A model generated the notes under the pieces. That model did no database searches, had not been told where the DNA came from, and saw nothing but the letters and a program-made list of their open reading frames with translations. From Kondoa subrosea (Eukaryota), in contig BCIN01000004.1 in the NCBI GenBank assembly GCA_039545335.1, positions 796,925 through 860,924 of the forward strand: DNA of 64,000 bases, given 5' to 3'. Below are positions 5,767 through 30,151 of the stretch, one piece after another. A program made the position numbers and the translations under genes. The first letter of the stretch is position 1. Each line of letters starts with the position of its first letter.

Positions 5767-8398
<2,632 letters not shown>

Positions 8399-15584: not shown

Positions 15585-17943
15585 TCACGATACAGGTTTG
15601 TAATCCTTCGGCACGGGATTTATCTTGTTCTCCAGCTGAAGGAAAGTCATGAGTGCTTCCGTTTGAGGGTTCGTGTACCAAGGAGCTGTCCCATTGTATT
15701 AGCACAATCACTTCCACGAGCTCCAACATACGATTGTCAGTCAGATCTCCTCCAGGTTCATTCGTACTCGGCGCGGTCTTTGTGAATTGCTGAATTTGCT
15801 CAACAGGTATTGATCCACCATTCGGTAAATTAGCTGCTACCCAATCTACTTGCTCATCCAGCAGTTTCTTGATTTCTGTAGATTGTGTAGGTAGGGATTG
15901 TTGATTCCGACTGAGCGAAAGATAAGGATGAAAAGCTCGCGTTATTGCCAACCATAAAGGATCGAACATGAGTTGCGTTGTTTCTGGAGCTTGCACGTCA
16001 GGTAGATCAATGAGCTGTACATATCATATGAGAATAGCCCAAGCCAAAGGAGTAAGGAACACTTACCTGAAGAAATTGTTTCCTGTGACCACACTTGCTA
16101 AGGGCGAGAAACTTGGTAGATTCCTTATCCATCTTCACAACCGGTATGTCAGCTCTTCTTTGATCCGTCCATCGTTGCTGTACCATCCCATCTTCTACTC
16201 CTTCATCCCCATCCAAATCGATCTGCACTTCTTCCGGGTTCGACTTTTCAGGACTGACAGGTCTACTAGGTATCCCAGCCAGACTAGCTAACAGAGCAGC
16301 TTTTGCTTTAGCCAATTCAACACTTTCATCCCTTTCCGAATCAGGTTGTACCAGTTTATCCAAACCTTCATTCTGTTGCATTTTTTCTTGAGGCAATGAA
16401 ACGATAGCTTGAGGATCTTTGATATCCATTATCACTTCTTCACCCTCAGAATCGAAGTCCACATCAATCTCAATCGCGTCTGGGTTTTCTGCTTTCTTCC
16501 CTTCTGCTTTCTTGTCTTCATTATCGGAAGAAGAAACGATCTCGATTTCATCCGGATTGATATCATCTAGAGTTTGTTCAAATTGACTACTGGAATGAGT
16601 TTCGACTGTTGATGTCCTAGAATGTGGATTGTGGTTGTTATGATTATTGATGCGGGAAAGGATTTGAGTTCGAGATTTATCATGTTTTACTAGAGCGGCG
16701 AATTTGGCATGCAAGTGTGCTGCGAACCATAATGGAGGTTGAAGAGTTGTTAGAAGGTTCATTAAAGGTGGTGAGCCTAAAGCGTTGCGTTTGATCTGTG
16801 CATGAAAAGCTTGATTAAACAACAAATGTTGCATGTCAGACAGTGAACGCACCTCATCCGCGAAATATGGCTTGAAGCCTATTAAGGCGGAAGTGTTGCC
16901 ATACTTGTCAATGTTTAATGGCCAGTCGTGAGATAGAAAGATGTCCGGCCTTTGCCGTTGTAGCTAGACGCATATATTGAGCTTCTGCTTTAGATTGGGT
17001 AGGGACAATGTACCTGTGCAAGACGATAGACATCGTACTGCCTGATATGATATATCGACCGCATTGTCGATTCAGAGTAGGGCATAGTTTCATGATGACC
17101 TGTACGAGAGGTCGGAGATTGATCCCTGAAACGGGAATATCTAAGCCAAATCTCGCACCTGAGTAATAGCTCCGATCATTGTAGATGCCGCTGGCGCCTG
17201 ATATCCGCAAACCATTGACTACGAGTGAACCTGCTCCGCCTAAGTAATATATCTGCGGTGCTATCCTACGTAGTGCAAATTAAGATCACCGCGAAAACGG
17301 CAGTAAATTAGAGCCATACCATCCTCCGTGATAACTGGTTTAATTAATCAGTCCATACATAGCGAATACCAAAACACACTGACAGTTCCCACATGTAATT
17401 GCTGGCTTCATGATTCCCACCGATAATGATAGTCAAAACGGGAGCGACAGTTTCACCTGAATAATACCTCGCGAACATCAGTCAGTCATATTCTTCGAAT
17501 TGACCGAAGGATAGGAACTCACTTGTGAAATCCGCCTAGAAGTCGATATTTGTCCGGTACAGCTAAACATTTTAGATCTGCTGGATTCCGAATTGCCTGC
17601 AGCATTTCTTTTAACGAAAAACCGAAAGGAAGCTTGTACGAAGACGAACCTGAAAGTCACCGCATATTAGCAGTAGGTCTACCTTGGAAGAAGTTCGTTC
17701 TTCAGCTTCTTTAAGCGAAGCATAGATCTAAAGGGAGATGAATGAATGATAAGGAAAGCAGAAAGAGAGAAGAAGAGAATGAATATACAGAATCTAATTG
17801 TCCGTGACAGCATCCTTCGATCTGAGGATCAGAGGAATGAGACGAGGAGAAAAAACAAAGAGAGACTGAGCGGAACAAACAGCAATCTGTCGAACTCATC
17901 AGTATTGCAACGGAAGAATGTGCGTGAGTAGACAGACCTTCAT
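15585..17943 (-). CDS. DBR1: RNA lariat debranching enzyme
   Basis: MK|IA|IEGCCHG start via microexons, [49 protein letters not shown]. Confidence 0.95.
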
Positions 17944-25836: not shown

Positions 25837-26543
25837 ACAAGAGCAAGAGGCACATTGACTCGAATGTGCACAAGTTGGAGGAATCTATTTCTGGCTCACG
25901 GCAATGTCGAAACGCGTCAGATTGACCTCGCGTGATCGTACATTTCGTAGCTGTACCAAACAGAGCGGGTCAGTCTGCTTCCTTGTTACACACTGAACAG
26001 CTTTAAGCTGAAGGATGGGAAGGCATCAGAGAAAGCAAACACTGATTTTCTCTTTCTCCGCCGATATCGGTCAAGTTCGTCCATGTTTGCATCAATCCGT
26101 CAATGAGGTTTCAGGTGCTGTAAAGCAGGAAATGCAGCTTTGCTCTGCTCGAATCCTAGCTCCCTTTGCGATACCGACTTGCATTCGAGTCGCTTCCGAA
26201 GAATTCTCGCCTTCTTTCGTCAAGCGAGCCATTCCTTTTTGCCTGCTCAACGGTCATGAATGCTTGCGTATCACTCTGGACGTACTATGATTCTGTCAGT
26301 AATCAAGAAGAATCAGTCACTTTACATTTTTCAGCTTTGTCGTCTCCAGCAAAGGAGAACTCTACTGGCGGGCCAGAGCGAAACGGACTACGGACAGGAC
26401 CGATAGTACTCGAGATCGGTTCGGCGCTTCACATCATACTTGCAAGACGATACTGTACGGCCAAAGANTTTTGACGAAAATCGCGCCCAGATCAATCTCT
26501 GGTGTTCCCACACCGAGTATGAGCGCGTCAAATACCGGTTCGC

Positions 26544-26742
26544 GGGAGTTTGGCTGAGTGGTCTAAAGGTTGGTCTGCCCTGGTCGCTCGGTCTGGATCT
26601 GTCTGACTTGGATTTGCAGCGGTAGCCTAGAATTTCATAGTTCAGCTATTATCCTCTGGATGCGTAGGTTCAAAGTCAGTAGCTCAGATGTTGTTATGGT
26701 TCTCCGTCTGATCTGAGTGTTACAACAGTCCTGCAGCTCTCG
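26544..26742 (+). tRNA. tRNA-Ser(AGA) split by three introns: exons 26544-26568, 26620-26632, 26644-26674, 26729-26742
   Basis: The spliced 83-nt sequence folds as a cloverleaf: acceptor GGGAGTT/AGCTCTC, D stem GCT/AGC, anticodon stem GTAGC/GCTAT with loop CT-AGA-AA, variable arm ATCC-TCT-GGAT, T arm GTAGG-TTCAAAT-CCTGC, discriminator G73. Confidence 0.88.
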
Positions 26743-26754
26743 AACCGATTCAAC

Positions 26755-26763
26755 TTTTTTTTT
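26755..26763 (+). terminator. Oligo-T (T9) Pol III-type terminator
   Basis: T run begins after a 12-nt trailer downstream of G73. Confidence 0.7.
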
Positions 26764-27197
26764 GGGTGGAAATTTCGTTAATCTAGCTTCAACCAATGGC
26801 CCTTTCGCCTCAGACACTACCAATATACTGCTTCACCTGATTTCGTTCATCTGGAGCACACAAGTAACTGATCTCCAGTGGTGTTGGCAATTTCGACATA
26901 GGATGATTTACATGCTGACAAATTTTCCCGCCAGATTTCCAGAGACATCCTGGAGAGAGGATTTCAAGGTCTCAGTAGAGCATTCTAATACCACCATCTA
27001 CAACATCAGCGACATGCTGTAGTGTATGGAGATGATATTAGCTCTCTCTCACTGTGCTGAATGATGCTGCTTGCCCACTTCAAAATGCGCGCTGTGCACA
27101 AAGTCCAAGCTATGCTGCTCAAGCACGTTTCTCCCTTTTCCCTTTGTTCTTCTTGCTATCGTCTACAGCTGCTTCTCTTCTTCCATCCTTCCTTCAT

Positions 27198-27960
27198 ATG
27201 TTGAACCTTCGTATTCGGTCAGCAGTCGCAAAAGATGTCGCGGCTCTTGCAGACCTTTACACTCGCTCATCCGAGCAAAGCGCACTAGCAAATTTCGTTC
27301 AACCTCAGATCAAGAGCTCAAAGGTCTCCTTCCTTGCTTTAGAAACCTTCAAGCGAAGATTAGGCGAGACCTCTGTTGCTGAAATCAGGATCAAGAACTT
27401 CTGGACAGTCGTCGGAATGGTGATGTATCAGTCTGCTGGACCACTCAAGAGACCTACAGAGGAAGAAATGGCAGCGAAAGGTTAGTCCGAGGCTTTAAAT
27501 TTGGGGATCGGTCTGACCGCAATGATAGAGCTCATCAGATCGTGCGAAGATCAGTATAGGCGCGATCTAGTCAACCAAGCGCTGAAGGAGAGGGAATCGA
27601 GGTGAAATTTCCCATTTCGAGGCTATCTTCTTGGCTGAATTTCCTTCGAAAGATACTTCGCAGGCCATATCAAAGCAGAGATGCATTTCGATCCTTCCTT
27701 TGCTCATCTGAGGTACGATGATTTGCCTATCGTGAAGTCTGCAGCTCATTGCCAACAGCATTGAGAGTGCACTTTCGCAACATGTCAAGGATGTAGCCAA
27801 TCGTCTTCAACTCCCAATCTGTCTCATTTCTGACTCGCCAAATCAGTGCTTCGATACTCTCGAGCGCGTTGTCATCCAAGACGATCGCCCAAGTCTGAAA
27901 CGATCATTGCTTCTTTCGATCCAATCATACAGCCCGATAACGAGCGCAAGAATAGAATGA
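27198..27960 (+). CDS. Divergent GNAT-fold protein, three introns
   Basis: MLNLRIRSAVAKDVAALADL GNAT-type start. Introns at 27481-27528 (GTTAGT..CTGAC..TAG), ~27602-27652 and ~27713-27758 restore an open frame ending ...SARIE*. Confidence 0.65.
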
Positions 27961-27989: not shown

Positions 27990-29110
27990 GACAGAAAGCA
28001 AGAGCTACGGTAATCCGATGCTATGTCTTTCATTGACACGGGCAAGACAGGCCTGAGAGGTTTTGACAAACTTGCCAATGGCTTCCAGTTGACTTAGAGC
28101 GGCCACTGCATTTGCCTGCTAATCGCTTCATACCCACAGAACCAGTTAGCATAGCTGAATATCGAGCTCTTGATACCCTTTCACTGGAATCCCGGGCTTG
28201 CATACATTGGCCAGCAAGCTTCCTCCATTGAAAACATGAAAGCGGTGTAGCAGTGGAAGGATTGTGTGCTGGTTGTGATGTGGTCGCCTGAACGTATACT
28301 GTGATGGACCTGCGCAGCCTGATTGGATCTCGTCTGGCCCAGGCTGGCCTTTCTTTGCTGAAATCAAACAAGGTCTTTGCGAGGCATTTGGACATCACTG
28401 CTTGACTTGTGAATGGTAGCGGGGTCGAGAGCAGAAATGTATGCTCATACTTCAGCACTCGAGCGATTCCAGCAGTCAGATAGGATTGATCTGCGAAGCA
28501 ATGCAGCGGTTTGCTTGATCGGCAAATTATAAAGCTCTCATCATCATTTCTCTTGCTCAGGAATCAGCTCGGCTTGTCACGATCTGTTGTATCCGGCCGT
28601 ACTGGATTCATCGAATGCACTACTCCGCATATTTGTGCGCTTGCAAATAATCTCGATACACGCATCGTACAAAAGATCGAGCTGCAAAAGTGTCGACCTT
28701 CTTAATGGCCTTACCACGACAAGCGGAAGAGAAGAGACTACTTCGCACCGCTTGACTGCTTTCACAAAGTCTCCTTTGCAGCTCTTCCTCGAATCAGAAA
28801 GTGCTGTTCTCGCTTTGTTTTGTCAGCTGCGGTTCATCTACGAGCAGATTTTCAGATATGTATTGCGAACACTGCCATTCGCTCTACTTTCAAGACTTGC
28901 TGCATCAAATTTGTACCTGTTCACAAGATAGTCAGAATTGTCCTGAAGCGGAAAAGCACTCACCACCTATAAAGCAGCAGTAAAAGATGTCCAGCATACT
29001 GTGATGCAATCGCGATTCCGGCTTTGAGTTCGCCGTATCGAATCAGTGCAATCTACGATTTCGCCTTCGTTCGTCAAGTGAGCCATTCCTTTTTGCCTGC
29101 TCAACGGTCA
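27990..29110 (-). other. Unresolved intron-containing or decayed gene
   Basis: Clear minus-strand intron gtgagt...ctgac...aacag near 28917-28963 flanked by an open frame (LLLLLYRW|YKFDAAS). A full ORF could not be built. Confidence 0.25.
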
Positions 29111-30137
29111 TGAATGCTTGCGTATCACTCTGGACGTACTATGATTCTGTCAGTAATCAAGAAGAATCAGTCACTTTACATTTTTCAGCTTTGTCGTCTC
29201 CAGCAAAGGAGAACTCTACTGGCGGGCCAGAGCGAAACGGACTACGGACAGGACCGATAGTACTCGAGATCGGTTCGGCGCTTCACATCATACTTGCAAG
29301 ACGATACTGTACGGCCAAAGAATTTTGACGAAAATCGCGCCCAGATCAATCTCTGGTGTTCCCACACCGAGTATGAGCGCGTCAAATACCGGTTCGCGGG
29401 AGTTTGGCTGAGTGGTCTAAAGGTTGGTCTGCCCTGGTCGCTCGGTCTGGATCTGTCTGACTTGGATTTGCAGCGGTAGCCTAGAATTTCATAGTTCAGC
29501 TATTATCCTCTGGATGCGTAGGTTCAAAGTCAGTAGCTCAGATGTTGTTATGGTTCTCCGTCTGATCTGAGTGTTACAACAGTCCTGCAGCTCTCGAACC
29601 GATTCAACTTTTTTTTGGGTGGAAATTTCGTTAATCTAGCTTCAACCAATGGCCCTTTCGCCTCAGACACTACCAATATACTGCTTCACCTGATTTCGTT
29701 CAACTGGCGTACCCGAGTTATTGAATTCCAGCGGTGTTGGCAAATTCGACATAGGATGATTTACATGCTGACAAATTTTCCCGCCAGATTTCCAGAGACA
29801 TCCTGGAGAGAGGATTTCAAGGTCTCAGTAGAGCATTCTAATACCACCATCTACAACATCAGCGACATGCTGTAGTGTATGGAGATGATATTAGCTCTCT
29901 GTCACTGTGCTGAATGATGCTGCTTGCCCACTTCACAATGCGCGCTGTGCACAAAGTCCAAGCTATGCTGCCTAAACACAGCGCCATTTCTCCCTTTTCC
30001 CTTGGATCTTCTTGCTATCGTCTACAGTTGCTTCTCTTCTTCCATCCTCCTTCGCATGTCGGACCTTCGCATTCGGTCAGCAGTCGCGAAAGATGTCGCG
30101 GCTCTTGCAGACCTTTACACTCGCTCATGGGAGCAAA
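29061..30137. repeat. Direct repeat copy 2 (~1.07 kb) of 26207-27279
   Basis: Same sequence as copy 1; ends inside the duplicated GNAT 5' end. Confidence 0.97.
29398..29596 (+). tRNA. tRNA-Ser(AGA), second identical copy; introns 29423-29473, 29487-29497, 29529-29582
   Basis: Identical to 26544-26742; followed by T8 at 29609-29616. Confidence 0.88.
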
Positions 30138-30151
30138 TGCGGAATGAATGA
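30056..30151 (+). pseudogene. Truncated duplicate of the GNAT 5' end
   Basis: MSDLRIRSAVAKDVAALADLYTRSWEQMRNE*; homology to the gene at 27198 stops at the repeat boundary. Confidence 0.75.

What the first reader, a model, noticed from the sequence alone, without database searches (positions are those of the whole stretch)
26551..26763. Internal Pol III promoter is partly broken by the T-loop intron, so polymerase choice and processing order are open questions
The A box TGGCTGAGTGG (26551-26561) is intact and a T9 terminator follows. The genomic B box reads GGTTCAAAGTC, losing the conserved C61 of GTTCRANNC, and lies 62 nt farther from the A box than in the mature form. Known: TSEN and RNase P/Z recognise the folded mature domain. 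Inference: spliceosomal splicing must precede normal tRNA processing, on either an uncapped Pol III transcript or a Pol II precursor.
Basis: partly seen in the sequence, partly recalled or inferred. Interest (0 to 1): 0.72.

Follow-up and report, generated by a model that had tools for sequence, protein, structure and literature searches.

The report
Spliceosomal-type introns inside a tRNA gene
A fungal serine tRNA gene is split by two short introns that look like the host's ordinary mRNA introns, plus one normal tRNA intron, which, if they are spliced as they look, means a tRNA precursor has to pass through the spliceosome before normal tRNA processing.

Summary
Window 26544-26742 (+) is a tRNA-Ser(AGA) gene in three pieces. 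A 51-nt GT..AG segment sits in the D arm (24/25). An 11-nt intron sits at the canonical 37/38 site. A 54-nt GT..AG segment sits in the T loop (59/60).

- **Promoter and terminator:** the A box is intact. The genomic B box matches 10 of 11 positions, with C61 lost. A T9 run follows 12 nt after the gene. An identical second copy lies 2854 nt downstream.
- **Intron type:** both long segments match the host's short spliceosomal introns in length, GTNNGT, CTGAY branch site and CAG. Neither has a bulge-helix-bulge motif.
- **Beyond chance:** of 561,306 in-silico double GT..AG deletions across the window, only this locus gave tRNA calls.
- **Other organisms:** a pattern scan of metagenome contigs found three tRNA-Leu genes with a GT..CAG intron at 24/25. 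One of them is circularly permuted and has a second such intron.

Sequence evidence favours Pol III transcription followed by spliceosomal splicing, as in fission-yeast U6, and then normal tRNA maturation. No RNA data could be obtained, so expression, the polymerase and the order of steps remain inferred. I found no published case of spliceosomal introns in tRNA genes.

The parts
26544..26568 (+). Exon 1: tRNA positions 1-24 (5' acceptor strand, D-stem 5' strand, D loop, first two bases of the D-stem 3' strand)
   Evidence: D stem G10:C25, C11:G24, T12:A23 forms only after removal of 26569-26619 (pair list)
26551..26561 (+). A box TGGCTGAGTGG, intact
   Evidence: 2 exact matches in the window, both in the two gene copies
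26569..26619 (+). Intron 1, 51 nt, in the D arm between positions 24 and 25. Signals: GTTGGT at the 5' end, CTGAC with the A 14 nt from the 3' end, CAG at the 3' end.
   Evidence: no BHB geometry; length within the 46-61 nt range of 10 verified host introns
26620..26632 (+). Exon 2a: positions 25-37 (C25, G26, anticodon-stem 5' strand, loop with anticodon AGA)
   Evidence: ARAGORN drawing
26633..26643 (+). Canonical 11-nt tRNA intron at 37/38
26644..26674 (+). Exon 2b: positions 38-59 (anticodon-stem 3' strand, long variable arm ATCC/GGAT, T-stem 5' strand, T loop up to A59)
26667..26677 (+). Genomic B box GGTTCAAAGTC. It matches 10 of 11 consensus positions; its last three bases are the first three bases of intron 3.
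26675..26728 (+). Intron 3, 54 nt, in the T loop between positions 59 and 60. Signals: GTCAGT at the 5' end, CTGAT with the A 18 nt from the 3' end, CAG at the 3' end. It contains an internal 8-bp hairpin.
   Evidence: all 10 tRNA calls among 561,306 double deletions use exactly this segment
26729..26742 (+). Exon 3: positions 60-73 (T60, T-stem 3' strand, acceptor 3' strand, discriminator G73)
26743..26763 (+). 12-nt trailer followed by a T9 run (26755-26763), a Pol III terminator-like site
29398..29616 (+). Second copy of the whole gene. Introns at 29423-29473, 29487-29497 and 29529-29582; A box at 29405-29415; T8 at 29609-29616. It is identical to the first copy apart from the T-run length.

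Best explanation
This is a working nuclear tRNA-Ser(AGA) gene of an unidentified fungus, present in two tandem copies. Its coding sequence is interrupted three times.

Proposed mechanism:
1. RNA polymerase III transcribes the 199-nt unit. It uses the intact A box and a B box whose core (52-59) remains contiguous, and it stops at the T9 run.
2. The spliceosome removes the D-arm and T-loop introns from this uncapped transcript by intron definition, as it does for fission-yeast U6.
3. Only then can the D stem, the T loop and the tRNA elbow form. The tRNA splicing endonuclease and ligase then remove the 11-nt anticodon-loop intron, and RNase P and RNase Z trim the ends.

Shown: the gene anatomy, the spliceosomal character of the two introns, and the Pol III-type signals. 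Inferred: expression, the polymerase, actual splicing and the order of steps.
For: **tRNA reading**
- ARAGORN calls tRNA-Ser(AGA) after removal of the two segments.
- Read directly from the sequence, the product has T8, A14, G18G19, T33, a GGTTCAAATCC T arm, a long variable arm and G73.

**Not chance**
- 0 tRNA calls in 24,645 single GT..AG deletions.
- 10 calls in 561,306 double deletions, all at this locus and its copy.

**Host introns**
- A DBR1 gene model aligns without breaks to homologue P0002 across 10 introns of 46-61 nt.
- The tRNA introns are 51 and 54 nt.

**Splice signals**
- Only 81 of 24,645 GT..AG segments in the window (0.33%) combine G+5/T+6, Y-3, a CTRAY branch site with its A 8-35 nt from the 3' end, and a length of 46-61 nt.
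- Both tRNA introns meet all four criteria, while only 2 of 10 DBR1 introns do.
- GT..AG is the register that restores the D stem. Three adjacent registers give the same product, and one of them is GT..AG.

**No BHB**
- No BHB geometry at either ectopic intron.

**Pol III signals**
- The A box is exact and the B box matches 10 of 11 positions.
- 2 of the window's 4 T>=8 runs sit right behind the two copies.
- The longest T run inside the gene is 3, although 4 of 10 host introns carry T>=4.

**Precedent**
- The S. pombe U6 gene is Pol III-transcribed and its intron is removed by the spliceosome. Fungal U6 genes carry up to four such introns (PMC5855946, passages).

**Other organisms**
- A metagenome pattern scan gave 4 loci.
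- L001 and L003 become tRNA-Leu(AAG) and tRNA-Leu(CAG) after removing one GT..CAG segment at 24/25.
- L002 becomes tRNA-Leu(CAG) after circular re-joining and removal of two 56-nt GT..CAG segments with ACTAAC branch sites.
- All three are followed by T runs.
- The same pattern has 0 hits in the prokaryote genome collection and 0 in viral contigs.
Against: - No RNA evidence of any kind exists, so expression, splicing and the polymerase are untested.
- The whole genome is not held. I cannot say whether intron-free tRNA-Ser(AGA) genes exist that would make this copy dispensable.
- The two copies are identical across the gene and about 430 nt of flanks, so there is no exon-versus-intron conservation contrast.
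- The B box loses C61, a position whose partner base is contacted specifically by human TFIIIC.
- The A-to-B gap is 105 nt, outside the 30-67 bp given for human tRNA genes.
- The intron of L003 contains a T5 run and both L002 introns contain T4 runs. In some organisms these would terminate Pol III.
- The metagenome pattern itself required GTNNGT at 24/25. The shared position and 5' splice site of those hits are therefore imposed by the search; only their 3' ends, their branch sites and the restored tRNA are independent evidence.
- ARAGORN is permissive about the D arm.
- An alternative 3' splice site at 26625 gives a weaker tRNA-Met-like call.
Confidence: 0.5

Rival explanations
1. Pol II precursor. 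The gene is read as part of a longer Pol II transcript, for example one starting in the 340-nt conserved upstream block or running towards the GNAT-like ORF that starts near 27198 (+). The two introns are spliced co-transcriptionally, and the tRNA is then cut out by RNase P and RNase Z.
For: - Spliceosome recruitment is normally coupled to Pol II (established knowledge).
- The B box has lost C61 and the A-to-B gap is 105 nt.
- The duplicated block carries 340 nt of identical upstream sequence and reaches into the start of a downstream + strand ORF.
- The intron of L003 has a T5 run.
Against: - A T9/T8 run lies 12 nt behind both copies, and such runs are rare in the window (4 in total).
- The A box is exact.
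- There is no T>=4 run within the gene.
- T runs also follow L001, L002 and L003 directly.
- U6 shows that Pol III transcripts can be spliced.
Confidence: 0.15
2. Disabled gene. Introns entered a tRNA-Ser gene, for example by reverse splicing followed by reverse transcription and recombination, as proposed for U6. The locus is now silent or yields no functional tRNA. It looks intact only because the event, or the duplication, is recent.
For: - There are no expression data.
- The two copies are identical, so purifying selection cannot be shown.
- The genome is not available to check for other tRNA-Ser(AGA) genes.
- Standard tRNA finders do not detect the gene.
Against: - Two independent intron gains in one gene, with every conserved tRNA position, the A box and the terminator intact.
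- Both introns carry stronger splice signals than most host introns: only 2 of 10 DBR1 introns pass the same four criteria.
- Three further intron-bearing but otherwise intact tRNA-Leu genes occur in unrelated contigs.
Confidence: 0.2
3. Non-spliceosomal removal. The D-arm and T-loop segments are ectopic tRNA introns cut by the tRNA splicing endonuclease, as in Cyanidioschyzon merolae, nucleomorphs and archaea. The GT..AG ends would then be coincidental.
For: - Ectopic and multiple tRNA introns, including at 59/60 and in the D loop, are documented in C. merolae and archaea (PMC3978253, passages).
- Some nucleomorph ectopic introns lack a defined BHB motif (same passages).
Against: - No register gives a 4-bp central helix flanked by helices at either intron.
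- The best case is 4/4, mostly G-U pairs, with no flanking helix.
- Both introns match host spliceosomal introns in length, 5' splice site, branch site and 3' splice site.
- All six long introns seen here (window plus L001-L003) end in CAG.
- Fungal endonucleases are held to measure from the mature domain to 37/38 (established knowledge; also stated in the passages).
Confidence: 0.07

Closest known systems
mRNA-type (spliceosomal) introns in U6 snRNA genes of fission yeast and other fungi (Tani and Ohshima 1989, 1991; Canzler et al. 2016, as cited in PMC5855946, passages read)
   Same: Both are small, stable RNA genes of the Pol III class interrupted by GT..AG introns with canonical 5' splice site, branch site and 3' splice site. 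A single fungal gene can carry several such introns. In S. pombe, removal by the spliceosome has been shown.
   Different: U6 sits in the catalytic centre of the spliceosome, which explains intron gain by reverse splicing; a tRNA does not. Here the introns break the tRNA fold itself (D stem and T loop), and a canonical tRNA intron sits beside them, so two splicing systems would have to act on one RNA.
BHB-dependent ectopic and multiple introns, and permuted tRNA genes, of Cyanidioschyzon merolae, green algae, nucleomorphs and archaea (PMC3978253, passages; PMC3728597, abstract start in the listing)
   Same: Both have tRNA genes interrupted outside 37/38, including the D region and 59/60, with several interruptions per gene. 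In C. merolae the 37/38 site is processed last. L002 combines permutation with introns.
   Different: Those introns are defined by bulge-helix-bulge motifs and cut by the tRNA endonuclease. Here no BHB fits and the signals are spliceosomal.
Canonical eukaryotic tRNA intron at 37/38
   Same: The 11-nt intron at 26633-26643 is of this kind.
   Different: The two long introns lie at 24/25 and 59/60, which this system is not known to reach in fungi.
Pol III genes with widely separated A and B boxes (yeast SNR6; PMC9136082, abstract start seen in the listing)
   Same: In both, an A box and a B box further apart than in normal tRNA genes may still be used by TFIIIC.
   Different: In SNR6 the B box lies downstream of the terminator. 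Here the extra spacing comes from introns inside the gene, and the B box also loses C61.

Membership tests
Nuclear class II tRNA gene (tRNA-Ser) | Cloverleaf with 7-bp acceptor stem, D arm, anticodon arm, long variable arm and a T arm with a 7-nt TTCRANN loop | tested here: met
   ARAGORN calls tRNA-Ser(AGA) after removal of 26569-26619 and 26675-26728. All helix pairs are standard or G-T. The cloverleaf is not present in the raw DNA.
Nuclear class II tRNA gene (tRNA-Ser) | Internal Pol III promoter (A box and B box) and a downstream T-run terminator | tested here: met
   The A box is exact. The genomic B box matches 10 of 11 positions and would match 11 of 11 after splicing. A T9 run lies 12 nt downstream. 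Use by Pol III was not tested.
Nuclear class II tRNA gene (tRNA-Ser) | Expressed, processed and aminoacylated | not testable with these tools
   No RNA data and no whole genome were available; the run look-up is reported under Tried and rejected.
U2-type GT-AG spliceosomal intron | GT and AG termini in the register that restores the exon product | tested here: met
   Met by both introns. Intron 1: 1 of 3 equivalent registers is GT..AG. Intron 3: the GT..AG register gives the TTCAAAT loop. Among the 23 of 840 boundary variants still called tRNA, a few others also give canonical loops.
U2-type GT-AG spliceosomal intron | Extended 5' splice site, branch site at the proper distance, YAG and length, all like the host's verified introns | tested here: met
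   Compared with 10 homology-verified DBR1 introns. Both tRNA introns pass four criteria that only 81 of 24,645 GT..AG segments pass.
U2-type GT-AG spliceosomal intron | Excision as a lariat by the spliceosome | not testable with these tools
   This needs RNA data.
BHB-type (endonuclease-dependent) ectopic tRNA intron | Two 3-nt bulges carrying the cut sites, separated by a 4-bp helix, with at least one flanking helix | tested here: not met
   Geometry scan over four cut registers per intron. The best case is a 4/4 central helix for intron 1, mostly G-T pairs, with no flanking helix. Intron 3 reaches at most 3/4. No positive control was run.
Canonical eukaryotic tRNA intron | Located between positions 37 and 38 | tested here: met
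   The 11-nt segment 26633-26643. This applies to that intron only.

The most novel reading that the evidence does not exclude
Spliceosomal introns in nuclear tRNA genes are a real, so far undescribed and phylogenetically scattered class. The evidence is a fungal tRNA-Ser gene with two of them and three tRNA-Leu genes in unrelated metagenome contigs, one of which is also circularly permuted. In this reading Pol III pre-tRNAs are bona fide spliceosome substrates, and two unrelated splicing machineries act in a fixed order on one 199-nt RNA. Such genes would be missed or mis-called by standard tRNA finders: ARAGORN reads L001 and L003 as Cys and Thr genes with long anticodon-loop introns.
Probability: 0.5. 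Interest if true: 0.88.

Novelty: new variant of a known kind. Interest (0 to 1): 0.78.

Why it matters
Textbook accounts keep tRNA splicing (endonuclease plus ligase) and mRNA splicing (the spliceosome) apart. The large tRNA review I searched mentions the spliceosome only as a contrast.

- **A shared substrate:** a tRNA precursor that needs the spliceosome would link the two systems on one substrate.
- **An open question made testable:** it would let one test, on a natural substrate besides U6, whether Pol III transcripts can recruit the spliceosome.
- **Intron gain:** it would inform models of intron gain in non-coding RNAs, where abundance, structure and proximity to the spliceosome are the candidate determinants.
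- **Annotation:** tRNA gene sets of some eukaryotes may be incomplete or mis-annotated.
- **Promoter tolerance:** it is a natural experiment on how much B-box damage and A-to-B spacing TFIIIC tolerates.

Tried and rejected
- **Sequencing runs:** The look-up of sequencing runs on window:24000-31000, kind rna, listed no RNA holder.
- **Whole genome:** it is not held, so I could not survey other tRNA genes or other tRNA-Ser(AGA) copies.
- **Contigs behind L001-L003:** Only 600-nt flanks were seen.
- **Raw-DNA RNA scans:** Rfam at gathering threshold and at E<=10, and ARAGORN, gave no tRNA. ARAGORN at a lowered threshold gave 9 weak calls elsewhere in the window, with introns of 52-1208 nt in 8 of the 9. 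I did not follow these up and regard them as noise.
- **BHB reading:** rejected.
- **Mobile-intron reading:** neither intron has another copy in the window apart from the duplicate gene. This leaves the rest of the genome open.
- **ORF-joining harvest of host introns:** 66 clusters, too noisy to use as a training set. I used only the 10 homology-verified DBR1 introns.
- **Copy-to-copy comparison for exon versus intron constraint:** uninformative, because the copies are identical from about 26230 to 26853.
- **Thermodynamic folding of intermediates:** the D and anticodon stems are poorly predicted even for the mature sequence, so it says little beyond the acceptor and T stems.
- **L004:** 0 tRNA calls in 442 deletion variants. 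It reads to me like protein-coding sequence, untested, and I treat it as a chance hit.
- **Earlier scan notes:** nothing relevant.
- **Literature searches for a prior report of spliceosomal introns in tRNA genes:** none found. The library holds only Creative-Commons PMC papers and bioRxiv, so this is not proof of absence.

Full report
**1. What is at the coordinates**

Window 26544-26742 (+) reads as a class II tRNA in three pieces.
- Exon 1 (26544-26568) carries the 5' acceptor strand, T8, the A box TGGCTGAGTGG (26551-26561), the D loop and the first two bases of the 3' D-stem strand.
- A 51-nt segment follows (26569-26619).
- Exon 2 (26620-26674) supplies C25, which completes the D stem. It also holds the anticodon arm with anticodon AGA, interrupted by 11 nt at 37/38 (26633-26643), a long variable arm, the 5' T-stem strand and the T loop up to A59.
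- A 54-nt segment follows (26675-26728).
- Exon 3 (26729-26742) gives T60, the 3' T-stem strand, the 3' acceptor strand and G73.
- A 12-nt trailer and a T9 run (26755-26763) follow.

ARAGORN and Rfam see nothing in the raw DNA. After in-script removal of the two long segments, ARAGORN calls tRNA-Ser(AGA) with an 11-nt canonical intron.

**2. More than chance**

- I deleted every GT..AG segment of 40-90 nt on both strands of the window and rescanned. 24,645 single deletions gave 0 tRNA calls.
- 561,306 double deletions gave 10 calls. All were at this locus or its duplicate, and all used 26675-26728.
- With the stricter form GTNNGT..YAG, 490 double deletions gave 4 calls. These were the Ser reading and a weaker Met-like reading that uses an alternative 3' site at 26625, in both copies.
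- ARAGORN is lax about the D arm. 455 of 1,160 boundary variants of intron 1 are still called tRNAs, against 23 of 840 for intron 3.
- The exact boundaries of intron 1 therefore rest on the D-stem pairing G10:C25, C11:G24, T12:A23. Three adjacent registers give this same product, and one of them is GT..AG.

**3. A second copy**

An identical gene lies at 29398-29596, followed by a T8 run.
- The duplicated block is 26203-27282 against 29058-30141, at 96.4% identity.
- The copies are identical from about 26230 to 26853, apart from an N and the T-run length, and diverge beyond that.
- This gives no contrast between exons and introns.

**4. Host and its introns**

- The window encodes eukaryotic proteins: DBR1, a protein kinase, poly(A) polymerase and GNAT acetyltransferases.
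- The best named relatives are fungi, mostly Basidiomycota, at only about 50% identity. The host is therefore an unidentified fungus without a close sequenced relative in that collection.
- The DBR1 gene (17821-15603, minus strand) has 10 introns. I fixed their ends by an unbroken alignment of the spliced product to homologue P0002.
- Their lengths are 61, 53, 55, 49, 54, 59, 50, 57, 52 and 46 nt.

**5. The two long segments are spliceosomal in type**

- Intron 1 has GTTGGT at its 5' end, CTGAC with the A 14 nt from the 3' end, and CAG at its 3' end. It is 51 nt long.
- Intron 3 has GTCAGT (the same hexamer as DBR1 intron 4), CTGAT with the A 18 nt from the 3' end, and CAG. It is 54 nt long.
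- Of 24,645 GT..AG segments in the window, 81 (0.33%) combine G+5/T+6, Y-3, a CTRAY branch site with its A 8-35 nt from the end, and a length of 46-61 nt. Both tRNA introns do, and only 2 of 10 DBR1 introns do.
- A geometry scan for a bulge-helix-bulge motif, over four cut registers per intron, was negative. The best case is a 4/4 central helix for intron 1, mostly G-T pairs, with no flanking helix. Intron 3 reaches at most 3/4. I ran no positive control for that scan.
- Neither intron has another copy in the window outside the duplicate gene.

**6. Other organisms**

The pattern GGCYGAGTGGTYTAARGGTNNGT found 4 loci in metagenome contigs. It found 0 in the prokaryote genome collection and 0 in viral contigs.
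- L001 becomes tRNA-Leu(AAG) after removal of a 71-nt GTATGT..CTCTAAC..CAG segment at 24/25.
- L003 becomes tRNA-Leu(CAG) after removal of an 82-nt GTAAGT..CAG segment at 24/25.
- L002 is a circularly permuted tRNA-Leu(CAG) gene.
  - Its 3' half lies upstream, interrupted in the variable arm by a 56-nt GTAAGT..TACTAAC..CAG segment.
  - A 7-nt linker follows.
  - Then comes the 5' half, with a 56-nt GTACGT..CACTAAC..CAG segment at 24/25, and then a T7 run.
- L004 gave no tRNA call in 442 variants, and I take it as a chance hit.

The pattern imposed the position and GTNNGT on these hits. The independent features are the CAG ends, the branch motifs, the restored D stems, the second L002 intron and the downstream T runs.

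On the raw loci, ARAGORN mis-reads L001 and L003 as Cys and Thr genes with long anticodon-loop introns. Genes of this kind may therefore sit mis-annotated in databases.

**7. Polymerase**

For Pol III:
- The A box is exact.
- The B-box core G52-A59 is contiguous. Only the 61 position is changed, and a C happens to fill the 62 position.
- T>=8 runs occur 4 times on both strands of the window, and 2 of them directly follow the two copies.
- The longest T run inside the 199-nt gene is 3, whereas 4 of 10 DBR1 introns carry T>=4. With two introns this is not significant; about 0.6 such runs would be expected.

Against Pol III, or open:
- In the human TFIIIC-DNA structure, the base-specific contacts are G53, T55, C56, G57 and the partners of C56, C61 and C62. 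This is my mapping from the numbering given in passages of PMC11811891. Losing C61 would remove one of those contacts.
- The A-to-B gap is 105 nt (116 nt start to start), against 30-67 bp quoted for human tRNA genes.
- Yeast SNR6 shows that widely separated boxes can be used (PMC9136082, abstract start in the listing).

From memory, and not checked here:
- A report that the S. pombe U6 intron carries a B-box match.
- Yeast work showing tolerance of long A-to-B spacings.
- A 1987 report that Pol III transcripts are not spliced in mammalian cells.

**8. Precedent and order of steps**

- The S. pombe U6 gene has an intron removed by the spliceosome. Fungal U6 genes carry up to four introns with canonical signals. 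Spliceosomal introns also occur in U1, U2 and U5 snRNA genes and in rRNA genes (PMC5855946, passages). That review does not name tRNA.
- The tRNA review PMC10275265 mentions the spliceosome once, as a contrast.
- In C. merolae the 37/38 site is always processed last (PMC3978253, passages).
- Predicted mean pair probabilities:
  - The acceptor stem is 0.81-0.95 in all forms.
  - The T stem is 0.00 in the full precursor, 0.99 after removal of intron 1 alone, and 0.73 after removal of intron 3 alone.
  - The D and anticodon stems are poorly predicted even in the mature form.
- I infer that spliceosomal splicing comes before endonuclease splicing, because the D stem and T loop cannot exist until the long introns are gone. 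End trimming need not wait for both long introns.

**9. Verdict**

The spliceosomal nature of the introns is well supported by sequence. The sequence leans towards Pol III. All expression-level claims are untested.
- I rate this a new variant of known kinds, namely spliceosomal introns in Pol III-class small RNA genes and disrupted tRNA genes.
- Seven literature searches found no published tRNA case. The library is limited to open-licence PMC papers and bioRxiv.

Noticed in passing
L002 (minus strand; locus coordinates 539-739): A circularly permuted tRNA-Leu(CAG) gene in a metagenome contig. It carries two 56-nt GT..CAG introns with ACTAAC branch sites, one at 24/25 and one in the variable arm. 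This combines permutation with spliceosomal-type introns.
   Followed up: partly
L001 536-606 (-) and L003 618-699 (+): tRNA-Leu(AAG) and tRNA-Leu(CAG) genes, each with a single GT..CAG intron at 24/25. Raw ARAGORN mis-calls them as tRNA-Cys and tRNA-Thr with long anticodon-loop introns, so such genes may be mis-annotated elsewhere. The L003 intron contains a T5 run.
   Followed up: partly
window 26203-27282 and 29058-30141: A 1.08-kb duplicated block (96.4% identity, spacing 2854 nt) with a core of about 620 nt that is identical. It includes 340 nt upstream of the tRNA and the first roughly 30 codons of a GNAT-like ORF starting near 27198 (+). The identical core suggests gene conversion or a very recent duplication.
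   Followed up: partly
window 15603-17821 (-): A lariat debranching enzyme (DBR1) gene with 10 short introns of 46-61 nt. One of them ends in GAG rather than YAG (17522-17468).
   Followed up: yes
window 26597-26606 and 16852-16796 (-): tRNA intron 1 and DBR1 intron 8 share the string CTGTCTGAC, and tRNA intron 3 has CCGTCTGAT. This may be an extended branch-site consensus of this host.
   Followed up: no
window 26625: An alternative TAG 3' splice site lies 6 nt downstream of the preferred CAG. Using it gives a weaker ARAGORN call, tRNA-Met(CAT) with a 10-nt intron.
   Followed up: partly
window 26207-26543: The 340 nt upstream of the tRNA are identical in both copies and contain a 7-bp hairpin (around 26400-26425). 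An Rfam scan at E<=10 found no family there.
   Followed up: partly
window 6509-8338 (-): Poly(A) polymerase gene fragments. The best named homologues are spread over all basidiomycete subphyla at about 50% identity, so the host has no close relative in the protein collection.
   Followed up: partly
window 26469: A single N in the window, within the conserved upstream block. The duplicate copy reads A at that place.
   Followed up: yes
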